From a virus (taxonomy: Duplodnaviria; Heunggongvirae; Uroviricota; Caudoviricetes), in IMG/VR virus record IMGVR_UViG_2687453319_000001: a DNA stretch of 37,753 bases; one strand, written 5' to 3'. The translations under genes were made by a program, and so were the position numbers. Of the stretch, positions 26,806 to 37,392 are shown in pieces; the stretch's first letter is position 1, and every line of letters starts with the position of its first letter. The notes below the pieces were generated by a model that worked only from the letters and a program-made list of their open reading frames with translations, made no database searches and had not been told where the DNA came from.

Positions 26806-27282
26806 ATGACGCACACACTGAATCCGGTCATCACTGTCACTGTGTCCGGTCCTGTGGGCAGCGGTAAAAGTTACGTACTGGCGCGGATAGAAGAGATGGT
26901 GAAACAGGAACTCGGAAACAGCGTCATTGTCGATGCTGCTGACGTGGAGAATGAGCGCCGTATGAATGGCGAAGATCTGACGACCTGGCAGAAGCCACGG
27001 GGTGGCACAGTGATCAGGCTGGAGGAATACACGGGACAGGGCCTGTTGTCATACGGCGAGGAGCGTATCTGTCGGACGAATGAGCTGCTGGATGTTATAT
27101 GCCCCACGGGCCGGCAACCCTGGATACTGCCCGATGCACTGCATGCCACCATTGCGGCACTGATGACAGTTTACGATCAGGAGCTGCTCATGAAGGAGTT
27201 ACGTAAACTCACCGGTCAGCCAACAGAATGTTGTTCGTCTCCGAAGTACGGCAAACAGGAAAACGCCCCGGATAATCCTTAA
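26806..27282 (+). CDS. Small P-loop NTPase of unknown function (accessory gene)
   Basis: 158 aa, AGGAG RBS; Walker A GPVGSGKS and possible Walker B VIVDAAD; only + strand gene in the late half; convergent with the repressor operon. Confidence 0.5.
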   Translation: MTHTLNPVITVTVSGPVGSGKSYVLARIEEMVKQELGNSVIVDAADVENERRMNGEDLTTWQKPRGGTVIRLEEYTGQGLLSYGEERICRTNELLDVICPTGRQPWILPDALHATIAALMTVYDQELLMKELRKLTGQPTECCSSPKYGKQENAPDNP

Positions 27283-27301
27283 GATACCTCCTGAACAGAA
27301 A

Positions 27302-27317
27302 CAGCCCTGAAGGGCTG
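27302..27317 (-). terminator. Hairpin (CAGCCC-tgaa-GGGCTG) between convergent genes; putative terminator of the repressor operon
   Basis: Perfect 6-bp stem directly after the stop of the 27320..27910 gene, T-rich tract adjacent on the minus strand. Confidence 0.35.
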
Positions 27318-27319
27318 CA

Positions 27320-27910
27320 CTAAAAAAAGAAGTGTATTATTGCCCAAACAGCTATAACGATGATTCCCAGCCCAAGAGCCGATTCTAACTTATCTTTGGC
27401 AGTCATTTTTACTGTTGTAGCGGGCGCAGGTAAGTCTTGCTGCTGTGGATTTTCTGTTAGTTGTTTACGAGAAGAAACATCGCCCCTGTTAGTTTGCTTC
27501 ATGTTGATTACAGATGCGTTATGGGCATTATCAGCAGCAATTGACTGAAGTTTTACAAAAGTTTTTGAATCTGTTTTAGCCAGAAGTAACCTATTTCCCG
27601 TAAACATTGCCTTAAAAGTGATAGTTTTTTTCGTCTTGTCCGCCGCACCAAGCAAACCTCCAATGACCAACCCTGCACCACCAAAGATTAATCCACCAAG
27701 CAAACCTGCGCCTGCCGCCTTACCTATACGGCTTTCCTCTTCACTATCCGCAAGTTCAATCGATAAAAGCTCTTCTTTCAGATTTAATACAATATTTTCA
27801 GGAAAGCCTTGTTTTGGTTTTTTGGCAAACACGATGGTACCGAACCCCATGCTTGCCCACCCTTTAGGAAAACTTCCTGCGATAACCTGAATCCCTGCCA
27901 TGTTCATCAC
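27320..27910 (-). CDS. Accessory membrane protein Y: glycine-zipper TM plus C-terminal TM (candidate exclusion/abortive-infection effector)
   Basis: 196 aa (start possibly at 27901, RBS AAGGTG); GKAAGAGLLGGLIFGGAGLVIGGLLGA glycine-zipper segment and C-terminal LGLGIIVIAVWAIIHFFF; last gene of the repressor operon. Confidence 0.5.
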   Translation of the reverse strand: MMNMAGIQVIAGSFPKGWASMGFGTIVFAKKPKQGFPENIVLNLKEELLSIELADSEEESRIGKAAGAGLLGGLIFGGAGLVIGGLLGAADKTKKTITFKAMFTGNRLLLAKTDSKTFVKLQSIAADNAHNASVINMKQTNRGDVSSRKQLTENPQQQDLPAPATTVKMTAKDKLESALGLGIIVIAVWAIIHFFF

Positions 27911-27991
27911 CTTTTACATTAAAATTTCAGAACGCAGCATGATGCCGCCTTTGTCTTTTTTCTGATCCCATGGTAATTCAGCTGTTATTTT

Positions 27992-28978
27992 CTATTTAAG
28001 AATAAAACGGTATTTACTGTCAGGAGTGCTTTGCTGATCAAGTAGCAGTGAACGACATGGAGCAGTCAAAACCCGAGCATAACTACCATCAGGGCTTATG
28101 TTAATGTAACAAACCTTGCCCTTAACACTATAATTTTCGGGGACGGATGCCTTTGCTGATACAGTAAATTTAAGGGTATGCCAGCCCGTTTTTTGCTTGT
28201 AGCTTGAAACCGAATGGAAATCATCTGAGTACTTATTTAACCCTGGAAACATGCTGCGCAGTGCGGGGATGGAATCTTCTATTATTTTATCGTTGGTTTT
28301 AATGTTAAAAACGCTGGTTTCAGTAGAAGCTACTGCTTTGGCATTTCCCCATTTACCAGCGAACACAATCATTCCCACGAAAAATATTGCTACAAGAACT
28401 AACACTCCCCCCAACACTACTACATGAGGCTTCCGGCTTCTGGTTGGTACAGTTGCGACTGATTTTGCACCGCTTTCCGATGGAGGTGATAGAGTTTTAC
28501 TCTCATCACGAATATTCAGCAGATCATCAAAATAACCAAACACAGCCTGCAACTGCTCTTTGTCTAGGCCTTTAAGATGGGTTGTACCGAAATGCTTCAG
28601 ACAGTATCTGTCACGGTCAAGACGATACCCAGGGTCAGTAAGCGCCATTATTTTGCTGACCAGAAGATTACAGTCCTTCATATTCTGGATCTGTTGTGCA
28701 TATCTCTGAAGGATCTCAACCGCACCATGATAATCAGCCGCAGTCATTTCATTAACTGTTTTGGTATTAAGTTTCGTGTGGATCGTCATCCATAGCTCGC
28801 GCTTACTTTCCCCCAGATCAACCAATTCATCCATCAATCTGTGTAAATCGCGTTTTTGCAGCAACGAAATTGGTTGCTGGGCCGAAGGAAGTATGTCAGC
28901 AGAATAGTTATGAATGGTAACATCACCGCTGACAACGTTACCCACATCCCCGTTAACTGTTTGCTTCTCTTTACTCAT
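27992..28978 (-). CDS. Accessory protein X: cytoplasmic N-domain, single TM, periplasmic C-domain (candidate sensor of a Rex-like module)
   Basis: 328 aa; start overlaps the repressor stop; TM HVVVLGGVLVLVAIFFVGMIVFAG; N-terminal motif GDVGNVVSGDVTI resembles the repressor C-terminal HGDVLGNVIKGNVTI. Confidence 0.5.
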   Translation of the reverse strand: MSKEKQTVNGDVGNVVSGDVTIHNYSADILPSAQQPISLLQKRDLHRLMDELVDLGESKRELWMTIHTKLNTKTVNEMTAADYHGAVEILQRYAQQIQNMKDCNLLVSKIMALTDPGYRLDRDRYCLKHFGTTHLKGLDKEQLQAVFGYFDDLLNIRDESKTLSPPSESGAKSVATVPTRSRKPHVVVLGGVLVLVAIFFVGMIVFAGKWGNAKAVASTETSVFNIKTNDKIIEDSIPALRSMFPGLNKYSDDFHSVSSYKQKTGWHTLKFTVSAKASVPENYSVKGKVCYINISPDGSYARVLTAPCRSLLLDQQSTPDSKYRFILK

Positions 28979-29400
28979 CTTCTCTTGGTATTTTTGTTCA
29001 TTATTCCACCTGTTCCTATGGTTACGTTACCTTTGATAACATTCCCCAGAACATCTCCATGAATAACCTGTTCCGCCCGTTCTCTGGAGGAGCCAGTAGT
29101 CAAGGCCGACAAAACTGAACCTTTGACCTGTAATGGTGCCTGCCGGTAGTGCTGCAGTAACTCCATTTCATCACGTGATAAAGTTATACCTGATGACTCC
29201 CCGGTAAGAATGAACTGTACATTGGCCCCAATTCTTGCAAAGGCTGCAAGTAACTCACCTCCGGGAACAGCAACCCCTCGTTCATATTTCCCCCACATTT
29301 CTCTTGAAACGCCACAAAGGGCTGCTACTTCAGCCTGCTTGAGTGATAACCGCGAACGCTCAGCTTTGAACCGCGACGCGCAAAGAGAATCAAAATTCAC
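28975..29400 (-). CDS. Prophage repressor (HTH, XRE/Cro-C1 family); start uncertain (GTG 29400 or ATG 29436)
   Basis: HTH segment LSLKQAEVAALCGVSREMWGKYERG; divergent from the early operon; the ORF-track ATG at 29436 lies inside the -10 of the early promoter, so GTG at 29400 (GAGG RBS) is more plausible. Confidence 0.8.
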   Translation of the reverse strand: MNFDSLCASRFKAERSRLSLKQAEVAALCGVSREMWGKYERGVAVPGGELLAAFARIGANVQFILTGESSGITLSRDEMELLQHYRQAPLQVKGSVLSALTTGSSRERAEQVIHGDVLGNVIKGNVTIGTGGIMNKNTKRR

Positions 29401-29410
29401 ATAAACCTCA

Positions 29411-29439
29411 TTGACAATGAGAACAATAGTTCTCATAAT
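29411..29439 (+). promoter_or_regulatory. Early promoter Pe (TTGACA-17 bp-CATAAT) with a 20-bp perfect palindromic operator (ATGAGAACAATAGTTCTCAT, 29417-29436) in the spacer
   Basis: Consensus -35, 17-bp spacer, near-consensus -10, about 45 bp upstream of the first early gene; palindrome fills the spacer. Confidence 0.6.
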
Positions 29440-29486
29440 CTATCACATATAAAACAAACATCATTGCATCAACAAAGGAGACAACA

Positions 29487-29675
29487 ATGACTTCCGAACA
29501 AGTTAAAAATCTCTTCCGTCAGCGTGGTATCACGTTTACCCGCTGGGCCGAAGAACACGGCTACAGCCGCAATGAGGTCTATCGTGTTCTCAATGGACAG
29601 ACCAAAGCTCGTTACGGCAAAGCCCATGAAATTGCCGTAAAACTGGGATTAAAACCCACGTCAAATGCGGCATAA
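29487..29675 (+). CDS. Small DNA-binding early regulator (Ner/Cro-like)
   Basis: 62 aa, AAGGAG RBS; first gene of the early operon divergent from the repressor, as Mu ner. Confidence 0.55.
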   Translation: MTSEQVKNLFRQRGITFTRWAEEHGYSRNEVYRVLNGQTKARYGKAHEIAVKLGLKPTSNAA

Positions 29676-29727
29676 ATTTTCCACATATGCAACAGGTTAT
29701 CACATATTGCAAAAATGGAAATGTGAC

Positions 29728-30036
29728 ATGAGTAAAGTAAATATTTCCAGTTCTGGGACCCGCATCCTACGTGTACTCAAAGCTCTACGCGGTCATGCTC
29801 TGAACGGTGTTTCTAACGGTGAACTGGCATCAGCCCTGGGGGAGTCCCCGGCGAATATCAATCGAGCACTTAATACCCTTATTGAAGAGGGACTGGCCAT
29901 GAAATTAGAGAACGGACGTTTCGCACCGGGAATCCAGTTACTACAGATCGCCATGGCTCACAGTCACGAGATGGCGCGTGCACAGGATCGTATTAACGAA
30001 ATCAACCAACGAGTTATTTCAGGTAGTCGTTTGTAA
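29728..30036 (+). CDS. Winged-helix transcriptional regulator (IclR-like HTH domain only)
   Basis: TRILRVLKALRGHALNGVSNGELASALGESPANINRALNTLIEEGLAMKLENGRF resembles the IclR N-terminal HTH. Confidence 0.5.
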   Translation: MSKVNISSSGTRILRVLKALRGHALNGVSNGELASALGESPANINRALNTLIEEGLAMKLENGRFAPGIQLLQIAMAHSHEMARAQDRINEINQRVISGSRL

Positions 30037-30046
30037 GGAGTAATCA

Positions 30047-30961
30047 ATGGGACGCACCAAATCACCCGTTAACACTGAACTGAATGTTGAGGTTCCGCTG
30101 TCAGATAACATCAATGTCAATTTGAACGCTATGACACAGCATCGCATGGAAATTATGCAGCAGTTTGGTGATGGACTGCCTTATGAACGTGATCGCATTG
30201 TTCACGAAGCACGTTTTTATATGGCGCAGAGTGCTGAATCTATGCTGGAAGCGGGTAAGCGGCTGATCATCTTAAAAGAAAATGAGCCACACGGTGATTT
30301 TACAAACATTTTAGAAAATGAACTCGGACTTGCACCACAAGTTGCTCGCCGCATGATGCAAGCCAGTATGAAGTTTTTGGGAGAAGGTGATGAGCCAACA
30401 AAACGCTCAACGTTGAGCGTTTTGGGGAAAGCCAAACTGTACGACCTGATGGTTCTGGATAATGAAGAACTTGATGAATTGGCCGACGGCGGCACAGTTG
30501 CCGGCCTGACGCTTGACGACGTTGATCGCATGTCAGTACGTGAATTGCGTCAGGCCCTGCGCGAAGCGCGCGAAACCAACGCAGCACAACAGCGCGTACT
30601 CGCCGACAAAAATGAAAAAATAGATTCACTCTCCACCAGACTGGAGAAGAAATCCCGTATTCAGCCGCCTGAGCCTGATGAGGAGGTTAAGAAGCTGCGG
30701 GCGGAAGTAACAGCATTAGCGGTTGAGGCGGAATCTGCTATCGCCGTCCGACTGTCCAGCGCTTTTGAGACGCTGTGCGCATATTGTGCTGAAAACATGA
30801 TTGATACCCCCAGAGACTTCATGGCAGGCCTGGTCTGTCAACTGGAAAGCACAGCGCGTAGCCTGCGCTCCACATTTGACCTGCCGGACGAGCCAACAGG
30901 CAATGCAGCGCCTTCATGGCTGACTGAGCCGACGCCACAGATTAACGGGCTGGAGGCATAA
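30047..30961 (+). CDS. Hypothetical early protein
   Basis: 304 aa, AAGGAG RBS; immediately upstream of the transposase; no recognised motif. Confidence 0.45.
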   Translation: MGRTKSPVNTELNVEVPLSDNINVNLNAMTQHRMEIMQQFGDGLPYERDRIVHEARFYMAQSAESMLEAGKRLIILKENEPHGDFTNILENELGLAPQVARRMMQASMKFLGEGDEPTKRSTLSVLGKAKLYDLMVLDNEELDELADGGTVAGLTLDDVDRMSVRELRQALREARETNAAQQRVLADKNEKIDSLSTRLEKKSRIQPPEPDEEVKKLRAEVTALAVEAESAIAVRLSSAFETLCAYCAENMIDTPRDFMAGLVCQLESTARSLRSTFDLPDEPTGNAAPSWLTEPTPQINGLEA

Positions 30962-30964
30962 CCA

Positions 30965-32734
30965 ATGAATGCTGCCCTGACTGAACGACTGGTTTATGTC
31001 GCCCGCGCGGCACGTGACGCGGGGCATGGTAAACGCGGTGCAATATACGACGCTGCCTGTGCTGAACTTGGCATGTCCCGCGCCACTCTGCTGCGCAGGC
31101 TGAAGGAGGTCTCTGTGACTGATAAACGCAAAAAACGCGCCGATGCCGGGCGCAGCGCCCTGACCCGCGACGAAGCCGCGCTGATATCTGCCACACTGCG
31201 TGAGGCCACCCGCAAGAACGGTAAGCGTCTCTATTCCATCGCAGATGCAGTGGAAACCCTGCGGGCTAACGGCTTTATCACCGCAGGCAGAACAGATGAA
31301 ACCACCAGTGAGTTTTTCCCGTTGTCTGAAGATGCCATCAGCCGTGCTCTGCGTAACTATGGCCTGCACCCGGAACAACTGGATGCCCCTGCACCACATA
31401 CCGAAGTGGCCAGTCTGCATCCCAATCATGTCTGGCAGATTGACGCCTCACTCTGCACGCTTTACTACCTGAGCAATGGACATAAAGGGCTGCAGGTGAT
31501 GGACAGCGCGAAGTTCTACAAGAACAAGCCCGCTAACCTTGCCCGTATCGCCAGTGACCGCGTGTGGAGTTACGAGATTACCGACCATGCCAGCGGCTGG
31601 ATTTACGTTGAGTATGTGACGGGCGCGGAATCAGGTGAGAACCTGTGTTCTGTGCTTATCAACGCCATGCAGGAGCGTGGCGGCGCAGACGTGCTGCACG
31701 GCGTGCCGAAAATACTCTATCTCGACCCCGGCTCGGCAAACACCGCGGGTATGACGAAAAACATGTGCCGCTCACTGGGCATCGACCTGATAGCGCACAA
31801 GCCGCATAACGCCCGCGCCACCGGACAGGTGGAAAAGGCGCGTGACATTATCGAACGCAAGCTGGAGCCGGGTCTGAAGTTCCGGCCGGTTCACAGTCTG
31901 GAAGAACTCAACGCGCTGGCCGCGAAATGGCGCAGCCACTTTAACGCCACGGCTGTTCACAGCCGCCACGGTAAAACCCGCACGGATATCTGGCTGAAGA
32001 TTACTGCTGAGCAGCTGAAAAAAGCGCCTTCCGTTGAGGTATGTCGTGAACTGGCTGTGGCGGCACCAGAACTCCGCAAAGTCACGCCAAAACTTCGTGT
32101 CTCGTTCCGGGGCACTGAATTTGACGTATCAACGGTACCGGGCGTACTGGTTGGTGAAAAACTGATGATTACCCGTAACCCATGGCGCAGCGATGTGGCA
32201 CAGGTGGTTCTGACCGGTGAGGACGGCCACGAGACGTTCTTCCTGGTCGAAGAGGTCAGAAAGAACGAGTTTGGCTTTGCTGAAGGCGCGGCGGTATTTG
32301 GCGAAAGTTACAAAGCCCTGCCGGAAACCCCGGCACAGATGGCGGCAAAAGAAACCGAAGCGCTGGTTACCGGTACAGACAACGCCGCAGATGCAGCCGC
32401 CGCACGCAAGGCGAAGGCGCTGCCGTTCGGCGGGCGGCTTGACCCGTATAAACATATCGACGACACCACACTTCCGGCCTATATGCCGAAGCGTGGTCAG
32501 GCCTCTGACGTACGCGGGCCGCGCACTGAACAACGTCCCATGACTCATGTGGAGGCCGCGAAAGCCCTGCGCGATAAGTTCAGCGCCGACGGCCTTACCT
32601 GGACGCCGGAACATTACCGCCAGTTAACGGCACAGTACCCGGACGGCGTACCGGAAGCCGCACTGGATGAAGTCATGGCCACGCTGACCACACCGGCCCG
32701 CAGCAGTGTTATCAGCATTGTTAACGGCAACTGA
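30965..32734 (+). CDS. DDE transposase (Mu A-like function; retroviral-integrase/rve-type core)
   Basis: 589 aa; core motifs HVWQIDAS and LYLDPGSAN consistent with a DDE catalytic domain; followed by the ATPase partner. Confidence 0.85.
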   Translation: MNAALTERLVYVARAARDAGHGKRGAIYDAACAELGMSRATLLRRLKEVSVTDKRKKRADAGRSALTRDEAALISATLREATRKNGKRLYSIADAVETLRANGFITAGRTDETTSEFFPLSEDAISRALRNYGLHPEQLDAPAPHTEVASLHPNHVWQIDASLCTLYYLSNGHKGLQVMDSAKFYKNKPANLARIASDRVWSYEITDHASGWIYVEYVTGAESGENLCSVLINAMQERGGADVLHGVPKILYLDPGSANTAGMTKNMCRSLGIDLIAHKPHNARATGQVEKARDIIERKLEPGLKFRPVHSLEELNALAAKWRSHFNATAVHSRHGKTRTDIWLKITAEQLKKAPSVEVCRELAVAAPELRKVTPKLRVSFRGTEFDVSTVPGVLVGEKLMITRNPWRSDVAQVVLTGEDGHETFFLVEEVRKNEFGFAEGAAVFGESYKALPETPAQMAAKETEALVTGTDNAADAAAARKAKALPFGGRLDPYKHIDDTTLPAYMPKRGQASDVRGPRTEQRPMTHVEAAKALRDKFSADGLTWTPEHYRQLTAQYPDGVPEAALDEVMATLTTPARSSVISIVNGN

Positions 32735-32744
32735 GGAGGGAAAC

Positions 32745-33911
32745 ATGCTGGTACTGAAGCAGCAACTGAAAGAGGCCCGTATTCCACAGGCGGTGGTGGC
32801 GAGAGCTGTCGATGTTTCTGAGGCCACGCTGGCCCAGATTGTGAATCATAACGCGTGGCCCCGCACCAGCCCCGGAGAAGTGCGCCGGCGTCTTGCGTCC
32901 TGGCTGGAAAGTCAGGGGATTGATACAACGAAGAGTTTTGATGCTGTACAGGGCGCGGCCACGCCCCGTACAGCGGGTACCACAGATAAAACGAGCCTCA
33001 GTGAGGAAGAGAATATGTTACTCAAAAAACAGGTGTTATTTCCAGCAACCAAAAAAGCGTTTGGTCTTTTCCGTGACCCGTTCGCCGACGAAGCCATGCA
33101 GGGTTCTGATGATGTGTTCACCACCCCGGACATTCGCTACGTGCGTGAGGCGCTGTACCAGACAGCCCGTCATGGTGGGTTTATGGCCGTCATCGGTGAG
33201 TCCGGTGCGGGTAAATCCACGCTGCGCCGCGACCTGACTGAACGTATCAACCGCGAGAATGCGCCGGTAATTGTTATCGAGCCATACATCATCGCTATGG
33301 AAGACAACGATGTGAAAGGGAAAACCCTGAAGGCAGCAGCTATTGCCGAAGCCATTATCAGTACCATCGCACCACTGGAAAGCATCAGACGCAGTCAGGA
33401 CGCCCGTTTTCGCCAGTTGCATCGCGTCCTGAAAGACAGCAGCCAGGCGGGGTTCAGCCACGTTCTGGTGATTGAGGAGGCCCACAGTCTGCCCATTCCG
33501 ACACTGAAACACCTCAAACGCTTTTTTGAGCTGGAGTCCGGTTTCAAAAAACTGCTGTCCATCGTGCTGATTGGCCAGCCGGAACTGGCGACAAAACTGT
33601 CTGAACGCAATATGGAAGTCCGTGAAGTCGTTCAGCGCTGTGAGGTGGTCGAACTTCTGCCTCTGGACAATAACCTTGAAGAATTTCTGACGTTCAAACT
33701 GCAACGGGCCGGTAAACAGCTGACGGACATTATGGACGCCGGTGCAGTGGATGCCATACGTGCCCGCCTGAGCAATCCGGGAAGTCACCGTAAAAATATG
33801 GTCAGCCTGCTGTATCCGCTGGCCGTCAGTAACCTGGTAATAGCCGCCATGAATCTGGCCGCTGAAATCGGGGTTCCACAGGTCAACGCTGACGTTGTCA
33901 AAGGGGTTTAA
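32745..33911 (+). CDS. Transposition ATPase / target DNA activator (MuB/TniB-like AAA+)
   Basis: 389 aa; Walker A GESGAGKST, Walker B HVLVIEEAH; N-terminal HTH-like segment; GAGGAGG RBS. Confidence 0.8.
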   Translation: MLVLKQQLKEARIPQAVVARAVDVSEATLAQIVNHNAWPRTSPGEVRRRLASWLESQGIDTTKSFDAVQGAATPRTAGTTDKTSLSEEENMLLKKQVLFPATKKAFGLFRDPFADEAMQGSDDVFTTPDIRYVREALYQTARHGGFMAVIGESGAGKSTLRRDLTERINRENAPVIVIEPYIIAMEDNDVKGKTLKAAAIAEAIISTIAPLESIRRSQDARFRQLHRVLKDSSQAGFSHVLVIEEAHSLPIPTLKHLKRFFELESGFKKLLSIVLIGQPELATKLSERNMEVREVVQRCEVVELLPLDNNLEEFLTFKLQRAGKQLTDIMDAGAVDAIRARLSNPGSHRKNMVSLLYPLAVSNLVIAAMNLAAEIGVPQVNADVVKGV

Positions 33912-33913
33912 TA

Positions 33914-34183
33914 ATGAAATCCACCACAGGTATCAACCAGCAAATCAGCAAAGTGCAGTCAGCCATTATGGCGCTTAAGGCGACGAACACGGATGTACAA
34001 AGCATCACCATCAGGGGTAACAAACCTGTCATCCGCGTTTCCCGGAGTGCGCATTGCATGCGCATGCTTGAGCAGGGAAAGGCCTGTTATCTGTATACCG
34101 GACATGACCACAGGGGATATTTCCGTCAGGGCGTTTTCGAACTGCACGGCTGTCGCGTCGTGTGGCCGGAATCTTTGTGGTAA
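33914..34183 (+). CDS. Hypothetical early protein (Kil position)
   Basis: 89-aa ORF directly after the B-like gene. Confidence 0.35.
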   Translation: MKSTTGINQQISKVQSAIMALKATNTDVQSITIRGNKPVIRVSRSAHCMRMLEQGKACYLYTGHDHRGYFRQGVFELHGCRVVWPESLW

Positions 34184-34210
34184 TCAGCACAACTGGAGAA
34201 ATCATAAAAA

Positions 34211-34741
34211 ATGGCAAAAAGTACAAAAGGTGCAAAACGTATCAAGGCCGCAGCAGCACTCTGGGTGCCGGGGACACGTGAAGAGGTCATTGAGGGAATC
34301 AGACTACTCGGTGACGCACAACGTGAACTGGTCAGGGCTGAAACAGAAATGAATGACGCCATTGGCGATATCACCGCACGTTATGCCCCGCTCACCGAGA
34401 GCCTGAAAAAACGCATGGCCGAACTGCAGTCCGGTATTCAGACATGGTGTGAGGCACACCGTGATGAACTGACCGGCAACGGGAAGGTGAAGTTCGCTAA
34501 CCTCACCACCGGCGAGGTGCAGTGGCGAAACCGTCCGCCATCAGTCAGTATCCGTGGGGCGGATAATGTTATTGAATTACTGAGACGTCTGGGGCTTGAG
34601 CGCTTTATTCGTGTAAAAGAGGAAATAAATAAAGACGCTATCCTGAATGAAAAAGAGGCCGTGAAAAATATTCCCGGTATTTCCATTAAAAGCGACATTG
34701 AGGATTTTTCAATAATTCCTTTTGAGCAGGATGTGCAGTAA
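34211..34741 (+). CDS. gam: Host-nuclease inhibitor protein Gam (Mu Gam family)
   Basis: 176 aa; MAKSTKGAKRIKAAAA...LLGDAQRELVRAETEMNDAIGDIT...ANLTTGEVQWRNRPPSVSIRG...FIRVKEEINKDAIL...IEDFSIIPFEQD closely parallels Mu Gam. Confidence 0.92.
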   Translation: MAKSTKGAKRIKAAAALWVPGTREEVIEGIRLLGDAQRELVRAETEMNDAIGDITARYAPLTESLKKRMAELQSGIQTWCEAHRDELTGNGKVKFANLTTGEVQWRNRPPSVSIRGADNVIELLRRLGLERFIRVKEEINKDAILNEKEAVKNIPGISIKSDIEDFSIIPFEQDVQ

Positions 34742-34838
34742 ACACACCACGTTAATTATTTAATAAAAACATTTTCTTTTTTATTCCGACGTCAGCGCCG
34801 CGGGCTTCTGCACGCCGGAAACAGAGGAGAATTAAATC

Positions 34839-35033
34839 ATGATATTTAAATGTATTCAGTGCGAGAGGGATATAACAGCCCTGCGTTTTCACAGCGCCAT
34901 CGCCGTGATGTCCGGTAAATACCACATCCCTGCGGTACGCGTCACCCTGGTCTGCCCGTACTGCAGCCAGCATTTTTCGGCAGACGTGCCCGTCATGGAA
35001 TTCTCCCGCCCTGACAGGGAGGACTCGCAATGA
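34839..35033 (+). CDS. Small zinc-ribbon-like protein (CxxC...CxxC)
   Basis: 64 aa with Cys pairs CIQC and CPYC; strong RBS. Confidence 0.4.
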   Translation: MIFKCIQCERDITALRFHSAIAVMSGKYHIPAVRVTLVCPYCSQHFSADVPVMEFSRPDREDSQ

Positions 35034-35302
35034 TTACCCCACAGGAAGCACGACAGCGCACCCGAACCCTTGTTGAACACTATGTCAACGAGTGTGAATG
35101 CCGCGACCTCACCGATGTGAAGCACGTCCTGACGGCGCTAATCAGCATGACCGCTCAAGCCATTGTGGCGACCAACGGAAAGGCGGCTGCCCTGCAGGTA
35201 CTGGTGAACACACTAACCCACACGGCAGCGCATGAGGTGCCGTACCGGATGGAAACCACTGCAGAAGGCGGCCTGCACATCACCGTCAGCCGGAAGCACT
35301 GA
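35030..35302 (+). CDS. Hypothetical early protein
   Basis: 90-aa ORF, translationally coupled. Confidence 0.4.
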   Translation: MITPQEARQRTRTLVEHYVNECECRDLTDVKHVLTALISMTAQAIVATNGKAAALQVLVNTLTHTAAHEVPYRMETTAEGGLHITVSRKH

Positions 35303-35311
35303 GGGCGCGGC

Positions 35312-35608
35312 ATGACACGGAACACCATACTCACCCGCACCGCCCTCTACCGTCTGGCCCTGCAGCGTTTCGGGCCGGACGCACAGGCCCTGAAACTGAC
35401 AGAAGAGGCCGCTGAACTGGCGGCCAGTGCTGCCCGCAATCTGAACGGACAGGGCAGCGAAAGCGACCTCGCGGCAGAGCTGGCAGACGTGGAAATCATG
35501 ACAGAGCAATTGCGCCTTCAGGGGATGGACCGGCTGATTGACTTCCACAAACAGAAAAAACTGGAACGTCTGGCTGCACGACTGGGCGTGATTTACACGA
35601 ACGAGTAA
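35312..35608 (+). CDS. MazG-like nucleotide pyrophosphohydrolase domain protein
   Basis: 98 aa; LTEEAAELAASA...ELADVEIMTEQL resembles the EExxE...ExxD motifs of small MazG/HisE-type all-alpha NTP pyrophosphatases. Confidence 0.55.
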   Translation: MTRNTILTRTALYRLALQRFGPDAQALKLTEEAAELAASAARNLNGQGSESDLAAELADVEIMTEQLRLQGMDRLIDFHKQKKLERLAARLGVIYTNE

Positions 35609-35622
35609 CCGGGAGGCATTCA

Positions 35623-35838
35623 ATGGCTGACATACTCAGGGAAATCACCGCATGGATACTGATTCTTACTGGCCTGGCGACATGCCTCAGTGCGGGGGCA
35701 GCCCTGGCTGCCCTGCTGATGCACATAACAACACAGTGGTTATGGGAAAAGCTTAAAGCAGCATACAGCCTGAAAGAGCTGTCCGACGCTGTCCGGGCAT
35801 GGAAACGGCAGAAAAATACCGGAGATACAGAACAATGA
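35623..35838 (+). CDS. Small membrane protein
   Basis: 71 aa with one TM (ITAWILILTGLATCLSAGAALAALL). Confidence 0.35.
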   Translation: MADILREITAWILILTGLATCLSAGAALAALLMHITTQWLWEKLKAAYSLKELSDAVRAWKRQKNTGDTEQ

Positions 35839-36518
35839 CAGACCAGAATAAACACATTGAGAAACTGAAAAAGTTGCTGGCGCTGGCCGCATCCGGCAAC
35901 CCGCACGAGGCCGCTCTGGCACTGCGCCGAGCCCGTAAACTGATGGATGTTCACGGCATCACACATTCCGACATTGCTATGAGTGATATTGATGAAACCA
36001 TCAGTCACTACTGGCCGACAGGCAGTCTCCGTCCACCGCGCTACATGCTGGGCCTGATGAACATCATCCGCGAGGTATTTGGTGTTAACTCCATCATTCA
36101 CCCCGGCACGCATCCGTCTGTGGGGTTCTACGGCAACCGGGAACGTGCGGCACTGGCTGCATACACCTGGGAAGTGCTGGCCCGTCAGCTGAAAAAGGCG
36201 CGTCAGCAGTATATCAGTGCACAGAACAAAAGAATAAAAACCGCCACCCGCACCAGCCGTGGAGACCAGTTTGCCGAAGGCTGGGTGCTGGCCGTTATCA
36301 GTGAAATACAGTCCTTTGCCCTGACCGATGATGAGCGTGAACTGATGCAGCAGTGGCTGGAACATAAATACCCGCAGACGCAAACCACCAGGGCGCGTAA
36401 ACCGGGAAGAAGCCGCAATGGCGACGCCTCGCGCTATGCGGGGTTTCGTGAAGGGCAGAACGTCAGACTGCACCGCCCGGTCAGTGGGCAGGAACAACAG
36501 AAACTGGAGGCCAGATGA
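35835..36518 (+). CDS. Hypothetical early protein (DUF2786-like N-terminus)
   Basis: Start at internal Met with GGAGA RBS; N-terminal KHIEKLKKLLALAASGNPHEAALALRRARKLM motif common in phage proteins of unknown function. Confidence 0.45.
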   Translation: MTDQNKHIEKLKKLLALAASGNPHEAALALRRARKLMDVHGITHSDIAMSDIDETISHYWPTGSLRPPRYMLGLMNIIREVFGVNSIIHPGTHPSVGFYGNRERAALAAYTWEVLARQLKKARQQYISAQNKRIKTATRTSRGDQFAEGWVLAVISEIQSFALTDDERELMQQWLEHKYPQTQTTRARKPGRSRNGDASRYAGFREGQNVRLHRPVSGQEQQKLEAR

Positions 36519-36745
36519 TTACGCTATCAGGTAAAAGCCGGAAATTAAAAGCCTGCCGAATATCTGCCAGATACCTTTTTGCCCGCGCCTTTTTTAAGAA
36601 CGTCAGGCCGGGGATCACAATTGGTGTTATTGCCGGACGCGAACAGGTTGAAAAATACATGTCAGGTGCATGGTGGAATAACGACCCTGTCATTGCTGCC
36701 CGTAATATTCATATCGAATGGGGAGGTATTCAGAATGACTACTGA
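36515..36745 (+). CDS. Hypothetical early protein
   Basis: 76-aa ORF, GGAGG RBS. Confidence 0.35.
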   Translation: MITLSGKSRKLKACRISARYLFARAFFKNVRPGITIGVIAGREQVEKYMSGAWWNNDPVIAARNIHIEWGGIQNDY

Positions 36746-36941
36746 AACCATTGTCTGTTTTCTTTTCTGGTATATGTACGCAGGATCATGCAGCGCAAGA
36801 CTTCATCGTTCCCTGGGCTATGGCAGGCACTACGACACCGCGCATTACATCCTGTACATGACCGCCGTCATGTTGTTCTGGCCAGTCACCCTGCCAGCTG
36901 CAACCGACATTGTTGCCGACAGACTGAAAAAAAGGAGATGA
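36735..36941 (+). CDS. Small membrane protein
   Basis: 68 aa starting at ATG 36735 (GGGAGG RBS), two hydrophobic segments. Confidence 0.35.
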   Translation: MTTETIVCFLFWYMYAGSCSARLHRSLGYGRHYDTAHYILYMTAVMLFWPVTLPAATDIVADRLKKRR

Positions 36942-36942
36942 T

Positions 36943-37392
36943 ATGCAGAAAAAACGCCTGATACAGCTTATCCATATTGCCCGTAATGAACTGGGTATGG
37001 ATGAAGACACCTACCGCCAGATGTTACAGGGGCTGACCGGTAAAGCCTCAACCAAAGGAATGGATACCACACAACTAAACTGCGTGCTGGAATCCATGAA
37101 AAAGAAAGGCTTTCGCGTTAAACCAGCCAGAAAAGCCAGCTCCGGTTTACCGCTGGATAACCATCCGCAGTCCAGGAAAATTCGTGCGCTATGGCTTGAA
37201 ATGGCTGCTGCCGGCATTGTTCGTGACCGTTCAGAAAATGCATTAGCGAGGTGGATCAAGCGGGAAACGGGCATCAGCGCCCTGCGCTGGCTCAGTACTG
37301 AACAGGCAAGCAGTGTTATTGAGAAACTGAAGAAGTGGCAGCGCAGAGCTGCGGGAGTCAAACATGAGCGACCTGAATCAGTTTCGAAGTAA
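36943..37392 (+). CDS. gemA: GemA-like regulatory protein (Mu gp16 family)
   Basis: 149 aa; LIQLIHIARNELGMDEDTYRQMLQGLTGKAS...QSRKIRALWLEMAAAGIVRD...ARWIKRETGISALRWLSTEQASSVIEKLKKW parallels Mu GemA. Confidence 0.8.
   Translation: MQKKRLIQLIHIARNELGMDEDTYRQMLQGLTGKASTKGMDTTQLNCVLESMKKKGFRVKPARKASSGLPLDNHPQSRKIRALWLEMAAAGIVRDRSENALARWIKRETGISALRWLSTEQASSVIEKLKKWQRRAAGVKHERPESVSK

What the first reader, a model, noticed from the sequence alone, without database searches (positions are those of the whole stretch)
33914..36941. Semi-essential early region carries several small candidate host-takeover genes, including a MazG-like pyrophosphohydrolase
Around Gam lie nine small ORFs with good RBSs: a Zn-ribbon protein (34839-35033), a MazG-like protein (35312-35608), two small membrane proteins, and a DUF2786-like protein. 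In Mu-like phages this region encodes anti-host and anti-defence functions; a MazG-like enzyme could degrade alarmone or signalling nucleotides.
Basis: partly seen in the sequence, partly recalled or inferred. Interest (0 to 1): 0.45.

Follow-up and report, generated by a model that had tools for sequence, protein, structure and literature searches.

The report
Early accessory genes of Mu-type prophage
This stretch is the ordinary accessory part of the early operon of a transposable (BcepMu-type) prophage carried by about one in nine sequenced E. coli; it holds nine real small genes, among them a small MazG-type nucleotide pyrophosphatase and a distant relative of the Mu Kil protein, and none has been tested for function.

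Summary
Window 33914-36941 carries nine co-oriented genes with Shine-Dalgarno sites. Their coordinates match RefSeq calls, each belongs to a PHROG family, and those with alignable relatives are under purifying selection.

The window is a BcepMu-type transposable prophage. The region is found in 629 of 5426 complete E. coli genomes and is 99.4% identical to phage PhiKM.

- **Other reader calls.** The Zn-ribbon (four invariant Cys), DUF2786+DUF7168 and one clear membrane protein are confirmed. The second membrane protein is weaker.
- **New here.** The first gene after B is a distant Kil-family relative. A roughly 60-nt hairpin upstream of the Zn-ribbon gene is conserved across genera. Gam and DUF3164 are mutually exclusive alternatives.

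Nothing tested here bears on anti-defence or alarmone hydrolysis. One phage MazG (Atd1) hydrolyses ppGpp; cyanophage MazG does not. Verdict: a new member of a known kind, of modest interest.

The parts
29411..29439 (+). Early-promoter-like site (TTGACA-17-CATAAT, 11 of 12 matches). It lies divergent from the repressor gene (28975-29436, - strand) and is the likely start of the operon that runs through the finding to Mor.
   Evidence: No other + strand promoter-like site and no convincing terminator between here and 37753.
33914..34183 (+). 89-aa protein, the first gene after transposition protein B. A distant relative of the Mu Kil family and a candidate host-killing or cell-division inhibitor.
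   Evidence: phrog_2041. BLASTP to an Aeromonas Mu-like prophage Kil_protein (PF26843), E 0.014. hhalign family vs family: probability 64%, E 6e-5, 70 columns, score 30.0, against 10.9 +/- 2.4 (max 20.0) for 300 column shuffles. Same position as Mu kil. Present in 47 of 47 relatives. The Pfam Kil HMM itself does not detect it.
34211..34741 (+). Gam, the host-nuclease inhibitor and DNA-end-protection protein.
   Evidence: Pfam Phage_Mu_Gam, E 1e-40. 62% identity to Mu Gam. Replaced by a DUF3164 protein in 30 of 47 relatives, never both together.
34771..34833 (+). Conserved non-coding element: U-rich tract (34771-34783), 15-bp-stem hairpin (34784-34820) and the Shine-Dalgarno of the next gene (34825-34829). 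In minimum-free-energy folds the U tract pairs with the Shine-Dalgarno.
   Evidence: About 90% nucleotide identity across genera, although the upstream gene is swapped and the downstream gene is only about 55% identical in protein with saturated dS. Consensus fold -19.3 kcal/mol. 97.8% of cells paired, with one compensatory pair. z-score -2.46. Kept even where a different ORF follows. No Rfam match.
34839..35033 (+). 64-aa Zn-ribbon-like protein (C5-x2-C8 ... C39-x2-C42).
   Evidence: phrog_3401, E 2e-40. All four Cys are invariant in all but one of about 35 variants that are otherwise as low as about 33% identical; that one variant has Thr at the third Cys. dN/dS 0.16-0.24. Pfam matches are all sub-threshold zinc-finger families. 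PhiKM's GenBank record wrongly calls a minus-strand ORF here.
35030..35302 (+). 90-aa protein of unknown function. Its start overlaps the Zn-ribbon gene's stop (ATGA). A variable cassette.
   Evidence: phrog_3691. Present in 23 of 47 relatives. Absent from KP12, where the Zn-ribbon and MazG-like genes abut.
35312..35608 (+). 98-aa all-alpha NTP pyrophosphohydrolase of the MazG/HisE superfamily, with metal-binding motif E31-E32-x-x-E35 ... E56-x-x-D59.
35623..35838 (+). 71-aa single-pass membrane protein. A variable cassette.
   Evidence: Kyte-Doolittle 2.02 over residues about 8-33. phrog_3958. Present in 11 of 47 relatives.
35835..36518 (+). 227-aa DUF2786 + DUF7168 protein, a near-core early gene of transposable phages. 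Function unknown.
   Evidence: Pfam DUF7168 E 1e-25 and DUF2786 E 5e-11. phrog_421. Present in 44 of 47 relatives. A 36%-identical homologue sits between B and GemA of a true Mu-type Aeromonas prophage. No relative with a solved structure.
36515..36745 (+). 76-aa basic protein of unknown function.
   Evidence: phrog_3681. 12 Lys+Arg against 5 Asp+Glu. dN/dS 0.13-0.26. Present in 21 of 47 relatives.
36735..36941 (+). 68-aa hydrophobic protein, a probable small membrane protein. Fast-evolving.
   Evidence: phrog_6436 matches residues 53-120 of the longer ORF, which fixes the start at 36735. Kyte-Doolittle maximum 1.52. 35-39% identity to relatives.
36943..37753 (+). GemA (36943-37392) and Mor (37364-37753). 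They close the early operon at the prophage end and are listed for context.
   Evidence: Pfam GemA, E 8e-41. Mor annotation and the host gene grxA about 300 bp further on in strain AR_0015.

Best explanation
The interval is the accessory, 'semi-essential' distal part of the single early operon of a BcepMu-type transposable prophage of E. coli. It is probably transcribed from the promoter-like site next to the repressor gene, so it would be expressed only during lytic development (inferred from gene order).

It is a mosaic of small cassettes:
- **Near-core genes:** a distant Kil-family protein right after B, the DUF2786/DUF7168 protein, GemA and Mor.
- **One alternative slot:** Gam, or DUF3164 in its place.
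- **Variable small genes:** the Zn-ribbon protein, the 90-aa protein, the MazG-like enzyme, and the small membrane and basic proteins.

The 98-aa MazG-like protein is a genuine member of the all-alpha NTP pyrophosphohydrolase superfamily with its acidic metal-binding residues intact. It most likely forms a dimer or tetramer of helical hairpins and uses Mg2+ to cleave the alpha-beta phosphoanhydride of a nucleoside triphosphate, giving NMP and pyrophosphate (inferred from the family).

Its physiological substrate is unknown. The most likely role is conditioning or cleaning the (d)NTP pool while the phage replicates by transposition.

The Kil-like protein is the best candidate for a true host-takeover function, by analogy with Mu Kil.
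For: **Identity of the element**
- 99.4% identical to phage PhiKM, genus Bcepmuvirus.
- Present in 629 of 5426 complete E. coli genomes.
- Gene order A, B ... GemA, Mor, then the host gene grxA.

**Real genes**
- PGAP calls, PHROG families and low dN/dS where it could be measured.

**One operon**
- A single strong promoter-like site at 29411. No internal promoter or terminator.
- Overlapping or closely spaced starts and stops.

**MazG-like enzyme**
- Conserved EExxE and ExxD motifs.
- Pfam MazG hits among relatives.
- PDB MazG profile hits that align the motifs.
- A high-confidence model.
- Phage NTP-PPase structural neighbours.
- RefSeq names for homologues in cultured phages.
- BcepMu gp06 'pyrophosphatase' in the same region carries ExxExxE ... 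ExxD.

**Kil-like protein**
-.

**Mosaic structure**
-.

**Fast evolution**
- The small genes have dN 4-18 times that of B and Mor.
Against: - No enzymatic or genetic data exist for any of these genes. No paper mentions their RefSeq protein accessions.
- The window protein itself is below Pfam thresholds (PRA-PH E 0.047). PDB sequence hits are weak and Foldseek against PDB is not significant.
- The monomer model is a two-helix hairpin, so the four-helix bundle depends on an oligomer that was not modelled.
- The first Glu of the family's 'EE-x-x-D' consensus is Ala in this clade.
- The Kil link rests on profile-profile similarity at 64% probability. The Pfam Kil model misses it.
- A house-cleaning role is a default assumption. 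A cellular homologue lies next to a NUDIX gene in only 2 of 9 distant loci.
Confidence: 0.72

Rival explanations
1. The MazG-like protein is an alarmone hydrolase. Like Atd1, it would deplete (p)ppGpp early in lytic growth, blunting the stringent response and alarmone-dependent abortive infection or toxin activation.
For: - Atd1, a MazG-like catalytic domain from Pectobacterium phage PcCB7V, hydrolyses ppGpp (Km about 50 uM).
- Atd1 also protects against TIR-STING and retron-TIR toxicity (bioRxiv 10.1101/2022.06.09.495361).
- The window gene is early-expressed and sits among fast-evolving accessory genes.
Against: - Cyanophage MazG neither binds nor hydrolyses (p)ppGpp and prefers dGTP/dCTP (PMC6850273), so fold alone does not predict this substrate.
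- A tblastn search of 50,697 phage records with the window protein found no Pectobacterium phage (5 hits in all). It is therefore not a close relative of Atd1, although no direct comparison was possible.
- The family also occurs in cellular chromosomes next to a NUDIX hydrolase.
Confidence: 0.13
2. The MazG-like protein removes a defence-made toxic nucleotide, for example viperin ddhNTPs or deaminated ITP/dITP. It might act together with the neighbouring Zn-ribbon protein as an anti-defence pair.
For: - The Zn-ribbon and MazG-like genes are adjacent, with overlapping stop and start, in KP12-type relatives.
- They are read as one fused ORF in one database protein, P0036.
- They are absent together where a lipoprotein-like ORF replaces them.
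- The cassette is variable: MazG-like in 32 of 47 relatives, Zn-ribbon in 37 of 47.
Against: - Purely inferential; no homology to any characterised anti-defence protein was found.
- Five relatives keep the Zn-ribbon without the MazG-like gene, and the Dickeya relative keeps the MazG-like gene without the Zn-ribbon.
- The region is well conserved within E. coli: 430 of 629 records are at least 99% identical. It is not hypervariable.
Confidence: 0.08
3. The MazG-like protein has lost catalysis and acts as a binding or regulatory protein, for example a sponge or an inhibitor of a host protein.
For: - It is very small (98 aa).
- The first Glu of the EE-x-x-D consensus is replaced by Ala in this clade.
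- Pfam scores are below threshold.
Against: - All five acidic residues of the EExxE ... ExxD signature are invariant or nearly so under purifying selection. These are the residues I recall as forming the metal site in Sulfolobus MazG-type enzymes; this was not checked here.
Confidence: 0.07

Closest known systems
All-alpha NTP pyrophosphohydrolase superfamily (MazG, HisE/PRA-PH, DCTPP1). Nearest solved structures: Sulfolobus SSO3215 MazG (1vmg), integron iMazG (2q5z/2q73), Bacillus MazG (5ie9), YpjD (2gta)
   Same: - Size of about 85-100 aa.
- EExxE ... ExxD acidic motif aligned residue for residue with 5ie9.
   Different: - Sequence identity is only 20-26%.
- The window protein is below the Pfam MazG and PRA-PH thresholds.
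- The model is two long helices rather than four short ones.
- Substrate and oligomeric state are unknown.
PHROG 2245 and RefSeq 'nucleoside triphosphate pyrophosphohydrolase' of cultured phages (Clostridium phiCP26F gp47, Halobacterium phiH, Xanthomonas X1 and others)
   Same: - Direct family membership: E 3e-34.
- Structural TM 0.75-0.81 to BFVD models.
- 31-48% identity between a family member and these phages.
   Different: - Those phages are not known to be transposable (my own knowledge); here the gene sits in a Mu-type early operon.
- As far as the searches here show, no member of the family has been characterised biochemically.
BcepMu gp06 'pyrophosphatase' (YP_024679)
   Same: - Same kind of phage and same region: two genes downstream of B, one gene earlier in the order than here.
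- Same motif type, ExxExxE ... ExxD.
   Different: - No detectable sequence homology.
- 145 aa, and a different PHROG (5658).
- An analogue or an extremely diverged homologue, not an orthologue.
Atd1, the MazG-like anti-TIR-defence protein of Pectobacterium phage PcCB7V
   Same: A phage-encoded, single-domain MazG-like pyrophosphatase.
   Different: - No close relationship was detected, and no direct comparison was possible.
- Atd1 was found next to phage nucleotidyltransferase genes, which are absent here.
- Activity of the window protein is untested.
Phage Mu semi-essential early region (kil, gp6-gp9, gam, gp11-gp14, gemA, mor)
   Same: - Same position and logic: small accessory genes between B and gemA/mor.
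- Gam is 62% identical, GemA 36% and Mor 30%.
- A Kil-like first gene.
   Different: - The transposase and B are of the BcepMu (rve / ExeA-type) kind.
- None of Mu gp6-gp9 or gp11-gp14 has a detectable homologue here.
- Mu has neither a MazG-like nor a DUF2786 gene.
- The early operon points towards the prophage end.

Membership tests
MazG / all-alpha NTP pyrophosphohydrolase superfamily | All-alpha helical-bundle fold shared with solved MazG and HisE enzymes | tested here: met
   [not shown]
MazG / all-alpha NTP pyrophosphohydrolase superfamily | Acidic metal-binding signature E-E-x-x-E ... E-x-x-D | tested here: met
   E31, E32, E35, E56 and D59 are present. They are invariant or at least 90% conserved in 17 close and 70 distant relatives and align with TEEMGEL ... 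EELGD of 5ie9.
MazG / all-alpha NTP pyrophosphohydrolase superfamily | Score above the curated threshold of a Pfam or NCBIfam model (PF03819 MazG, PF12643 MazG-like, PF01503 PRA-PH) | tested here: not met
   The window protein hits only PRA-PH, at E 0.047 (14.5 bits against a cut-off of 21.3), and TIGR03188 at E 0.035. Of 70 relatives, 18 reach E < 0.01 on PF03819.
MazG / all-alpha NTP pyrophosphohydrolase superfamily | Mg2+-dependent hydrolysis of (d)NTP to (d)NMP + PPi | not testable with these tools
   Needs purified protein and a pyrophosphate-release assay.
MazG / all-alpha NTP pyrophosphohydrolase superfamily | Dimer or tetramer that completes the active-site bundle | not tested
Mu Kil family (Pfam PF26843 Kil_protein) | Match to the family HMM | tested here: not met
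   No Kil_protein hit for the window protein or for 9 relatives, even at E 10.
Mu Kil family (Pfam PF26843 Kil_protein) | Profile-profile similarity over the whole domain, above chance | tested here: met
   hhalign probability 64%, E 6e-5, 70 columns, score 30.0. 300 column-shuffled controls gave mean 10.9, sd 2.4, max 20.0. Shared motifs (R/K)P-x-I-x-[IV] and L-[NH]-G-C-x-[IV]-x-W.
Mu Kil family (Pfam PF26843 Kil_protein) | Early-operon gene in the first positions downstream of transposition protein B | tested here: met
   Mu: kil directly follows B. The Aeromonas Mu-like prophage has Kil as the third gene after B. Here the stop of B and the start of the gene are 2 nt apart.
Mu Kil family (Pfam PF26843 Kil_protein) | Expression kills the host or blocks its division | not testable with these tools
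   The phenotype of Mu kil is known from Waggoner et al. 1989, as cited in PMC3961180. It has not been tested for this protein.
Mu Gam (PF07352) | Family HMM above threshold and similarity to Mu Gam | tested here: met
   139.6 bits against a cut-off of 28.3. 62% identity over 169 aa to Mu Gam.
DUF2786 / DUF7168 proteins | Both Pfam domains above threshold, in N-to-C order | tested here: met
   DUF2786 42.9 bits (cut-off 23.9), residues 20-56. DUF7168 90.4 bits (cut-off 25.5), residues 58-201. Residue numbers are those of the 239-aa ORF that starts at 35799. All 64 homologues found carry one or both of these domains.
Zinc-ribbon proteins | Two CxxC pairs that are invariant across homologues | tested here: met
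   C5, C8, C39 and C42 are kept in all but one of about 35 distinct variants, down to about 33% identity; one variant has Thr at the third Cys. No specific Pfam zinc-finger family reaches threshold. Metal binding itself is untested.
Phage anti-defence proteins | Homology to a characterised anti-defence protein, or a hypervariable accessory-island context | tested here: inconclusive
   No homology was found in Pfam, PHROGs, NCBIfam, PADLOC or PDB. Cassette turnover between genera and fast protein evolution fit the idea. Within E. coli the region is highly conserved. No anti-defence HMM library was available.

The most novel reading that the evidence does not exclude
The Zn-ribbon and MazG-like genes, preceded by the conserved hairpin, could form a translationally controlled counter-defence cassette. 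The enzyme would destroy an alarmone or a defence-made nucleotide, such as (p)ppGpp or a ddhNTP, at the start of lytic growth of a prophage carried by about 12% of complete E. coli genomes, among them an O25:H4 isolate. The hairpin with its anti-Shine-Dalgarno U tract would then be a new cis-regulatory RNA that gates expression of whichever cassette follows it.
Probability: 0.1. Interest if true: 0.55.

Novelty: new member of a known kind. Interest (0 to 1): 0.25.

Why it matters
This prophage is very common in E. coli, so its early genes are expressed whenever it is induced in many clinical and environmental strains.

- If the MazG-like enzyme proved to act on alarmones or defence nucleotides, it would add a widespread example to the short list of phage nucleotide-hydrolase counter-defences.
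- If it is a house-cleaning enzyme, it shows that transposable phages of this lineage repeatedly keep a pyrophosphatase in this region; BcepMu does too.
- The Kil-like assignment gives an immediately testable toxicity candidate.
- The conserved hairpin and the Gam/DUF3164 alternation are small, concrete leads into how Mu-type early operons are built and regulated.

None of this overturns current understanding.

Tried and rejected
1. Single-sequence and narrow-profile searches of PDB sequences with the MazG-like protein gave only chance hits. A wider 70-sequence profile was needed.
2. The first AlphaFold2 run, on a shallow 17-sequence alignment, was poor (pLDDT 66.8) and was discarded in favour of the 70-sequence run.
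4. PADLOC found nothing meaningful for any of the ten proteins.
5. Rfam found no RNA family in 29000-37753, even at E 1.
6. BcepMu gp06 and gp07 showed no detectable homology to the window's MazG-like and 89-aa proteins.
7. Mu gp6-gp9 and gp11-gp14 have no significant match to any window protein. The Zn-ribbon's resemblance to Mu gp6 (CPxCS motif, E 0.37) was judged generic.
8. The DUF2786 protein has no relative with a solved structure, even by profile. Literature on DUF2786 and DUF3164 is incidental only.
9. A link between NUDIX and MazG-like genes in cellular genomes holds in only 2 of 9 distant loci.
10. No paper mentions the RefSeq protein accessions.
11. Spurious ORFs were ruled out. The minus-strand ORF 34752-35030 that PhiKM annotates is not supported: the + strand ORF has a full-length PHROG match, invariant Cys residues and low dN/dS.
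12. The Atd1 sequence could not be retrieved, so no direct comparison was made.

Full report
**What the window is**

The 3-kb interval is 99.4% identical to Escherichia phage PhiKM, a Bcepmuvirus from a uropathogenic E. coli. It is 100% identical to many E. coli chromosomes. 629 of 5426 complete genomes carry it, 619 of them over at least 80% of its length and 430 at 99% identity or more.

In strain AR_0015 the + strand gene order is: HTH regulators, DUF3102, transposase A, ExeA-type B, the nine genes of the finding, GemA, Mor. The host gene grxA follows about 300 bp later. The early operon therefore runs towards the prophage end, and BcepMu has the same layout. The window stops exactly at the Mor stop codon.

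**Checking the observation**

Each matches a PHROG family at E 1e-34 to 1e-77. GGAG-type ribosome-binding sites precede each start.

Seven of the nine genes have alignable relatives in Klebsiella phage KP12 or in Symbiopectobacterium, Apirhabdus, Intestinirhabdus and Dickeya prophages. Six of these show third-position-dominated substitution, with dN/dS of 0.08-0.26 against most relatives. The 68-aa gene is too diverged to measure. The 71-aa and 90-aa genes have no usable comparison.

So the genes are real. Small corrections:
- The nine genes include Gam.
- The DUF2786 gene starts at 35835.
- Only the 71-aa protein has a strong transmembrane segment. The 68-aa protein is hydrophobic but just below the usual threshold.

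One strong promoter-like site (29411-29439, 11 of 12 matches) faces away from the repressor gene. No further + strand promoter-like site or convincing terminator lies before the window end. This fits a single early transcript.

**The MazG-like protein (35312-35608)**

- **Direct database evidence is split.** PHROG 2245 'nucleoside triphosphate pyrophosphohydrolase' matches at E 3e-34. Pfam gives only PRA-PH at E 0.047 and NCBIfam only HisE at 0.035. PDB sequence searches with the protein or a narrow profile found nothing.
- **The family is large.** A profile search of 1.84 billion representatives found 10,697 relatives at E <= 1e-3, mostly proteins of 90-110 aa.
- **The motif is conserved.** In a 70-sequence alignment the motif EE-x-x-EL ... 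(E)E-x-A-D-V-E-I-M-x-E-Q is conserved. E31 and D59 are invariant; E32, E35 and E56 are at least 90% conserved.
- **Relatives reach known families.** Eighteen of the 70 hit Pfam MazG at E < 0.01. The profile picks up solved MazG proteins 5ie9, 2q73, 2q5z, 2gta and 1vmg at E 0.005-0.3. In the printed 5ie9 alignment the two acidic motifs line up with TEEMGEL ... EELGD.
- **The model is confident.** With this alignment AlphaFold2 gives pLDDT 95.6.
- **Homologues are already annotated.** They occur in cultured phages of Clostridium, Fusobacterium, Xanthomonas and Aeromonas, and in Halobacterium phage phiH, often under that name.
- **BcepMu has an analogue.** Its gp06 'pyrophosphatase' lies two genes after B and carries ExxExxE ... 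ExxD, although it shows no detectable sequence homology.

The superfamily assignment is therefore sound and the catalytic residues are intact. It is also not new.

**What the enzyme might act on**

Nothing computed here identifies the substrate, and published data on phage MazG enzymes disagree:
- Atd1 from a Pectobacterium phage hydrolyses ppGpp and relieves TIR-STING and retron-TIR toxicity.
- Cyanophage MazG neither binds nor hydrolyses (p)ppGpp and prefers dGTP/dCTP.

The window protein is not a close relative of any Pectobacterium phage protein. Distant cellular homologues exist, two of them next to a NUDIX hydrolase gene. I therefore rank pool conditioning or house-cleaning first, alarmone hydrolysis second, and removal of defence-made nucleotides third. 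All remain untested.

**The other genes**

- **Gam** is unambiguous (Pfam E 1e-40; 62% identical to Mu Gam).
- **The 64-aa protein** keeps C5, C8, C39 and C42 in all but one of about 35 variants, down to about 33% identity. A zinc ribbon is likely. PhiKM's record wrongly annotates a minus-strand ORF there.
- **The 227-aa protein** has DUF2786 plus DUF7168. A 36%-identical homologue lies between B and GemA of a true Mu-type Aeromonas prophage. It has no relative with a solved structure.
- **The 89-aa protein** directly after B has no Pfam hit, but it resembles the Kil_protein of that Aeromonas prophage (BLASTP E 0.014). A 12-sequence profile against a 5-sequence Kil profile that includes Mu Kil gives hhalign probability 64%, E 6e-5, over 70 columns with score 30.0. 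Three hundred column-shuffled controls gave 10.9 +/- 2.4, with a maximum of 20.0. Mu kil also directly follows B. I take the protein to be a diverged Kil-family member, at roughly 60% confidence. Mu kil is a host-killing gene (Waggoner et al. 1989, cited in PMC3961180).

**Mosaic structure**

Presence among 47 IMG/VR relatives that hold both B and GemA:

| Gene | Relatives with it (of 47) |
|---|---|
| Kil-like (89 aa) | 47 |
| DUF2786/DUF7168 | 44 |
| Zn-ribbon | 37 |
| 68-aa hydrophobic protein | 36 |
| MazG-like | 32 |
| 90-aa protein | 23 |
| 76-aa basic protein | 21 |
| 71-aa membrane protein | 11 |
| Gam | 17 |
| DUF3164 (in place of Gam) | 30 |

Gam and DUF3164 never occur together.

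Protein divergence (dN) of the small genes is 0.14-0.72, against 0.03-0.05 for B and Mor in the same genome pairs. This is what an accessory early region looks like. It is compatible with host-interaction roles but does not demonstrate them. Within E. coli the region is highly conserved.

**A conserved non-coding element**

The 97-nt gap between Gam and the Zn-ribbon gene contains a hairpin (34784-34820) preceded by a U-rich tract.
- The block is about 90% identical across genera, although the upstream gene is swapped and the downstream gene has saturated synonymous divergence.
- The consensus fold is -19.3 kcal/mol with 15 pairs. 97.8% of cells are paired, with one compensatory UA/CG pair and several changes that keep G-U pairs.
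- In most variants the minimum-free-energy fold pairs the U tract with the Shine-Dalgarno of the next gene.
- The element persists where a 61-aa lipoprotein-like ORF replaces the Zn-ribbon and MazG-like genes.
- It is absent from the Dickeya relative, BcepMu, Mu and the Aeromonas prophage, and it matches no Rfam family.

Covariation is too thin to prove an RNA structure. A translational operator, an RNA processing or stability element, or a recombination boundary all remain possible.

**Verdict**

Anti-defence and alarmone roles are speculation with one published precedent and one counter-example. The finding is a new member of known kinds and of modest interest. The Kil-like assignment and the conserved hairpin are the most useful additions.

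Noticed in passing
window 34771-34833: A non-coding hairpin with an upstream U tract is about 90% identical across genera. In predicted folds the U tract pairs with the Shine-Dalgarno of the next gene. The element is kept whichever genes flank it, and it has no Rfam match.
   Followed up: partly
window 34211-34741; L003:3610-4221; 47 IMG/VR loci (L129-L196): Gam (17 loci) and a DUF3164 protein (30 loci) occupy the same slot and never co-occur. BcepMu and an Aeromonas Mu-like prophage have DUF3164 and no Gam, while Mu has Gam and no DUF3164. DUF3164 may be a functional substitute for Gam.
   Followed up: partly
window 26806-28978: A low-GC stretch (43-46% against about 56% elsewhere) lies between the lysis genes and the repressor gene. 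It holds three ORFs (158, 196 and 328 aa). The latter two are on the repressor strand and each contains a long hydrophobic stretch (by eye). PHROG families are of unknown function, and there is no Pfam or credible PADLOC hit. These are candidate lysogen-expressed cargo genes.
   Followed up: partly
L130 and 11 other IMG/VR loci, just downstream of the hairpin: In these relatives the hairpin is followed by a 53-64-aa ORF with a lipoprotein-like N-terminus (LLVSAC) instead of the Zn-ribbon gene. The MazG-like gene is absent from them.
   Followed up: partly
proteins P0036, P0012, P0031: One database protein reads the Zn-ribbon and MazG-like genes as a single 166-aa ORF. Others carry a roughly 70-aa C-terminal extension on the MazG-like domain.
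   Followed up: no
L001 (PhiKM) 4839-5060 minus strand; L003 (KP12) record header: PhiKM's GenBank record annotates a minus-strand ORF where the conserved + strand Zn-ribbon gene lies. KP12 is filed under Vequintavirinae although it is a BcepMu-type phage.
   Followed up: yes
window 33914-36941 compared with 32745-33911 and 37364-37753: The small early genes have dN values 4-18 times those of the flanking B and Mor genes in the same genome pairs.
   Followed up: yes
window 34789: The window's copy of the hairpin has A where most E. coli copies have G (CCGACG against CCGGCG). This breaks one base pair and weakens the predicted fold from about -29 to -22 kcal/mol.
   Followed up: partly
NC_052650.1 (Halobacterium phage phiH) 47476-47718: A homologue of this small NTP-PPase family, 47% identical to a family member, occurs in an archaeal virus. 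The family therefore spans viruses of both prokaryotic domains.
   Followed up: no
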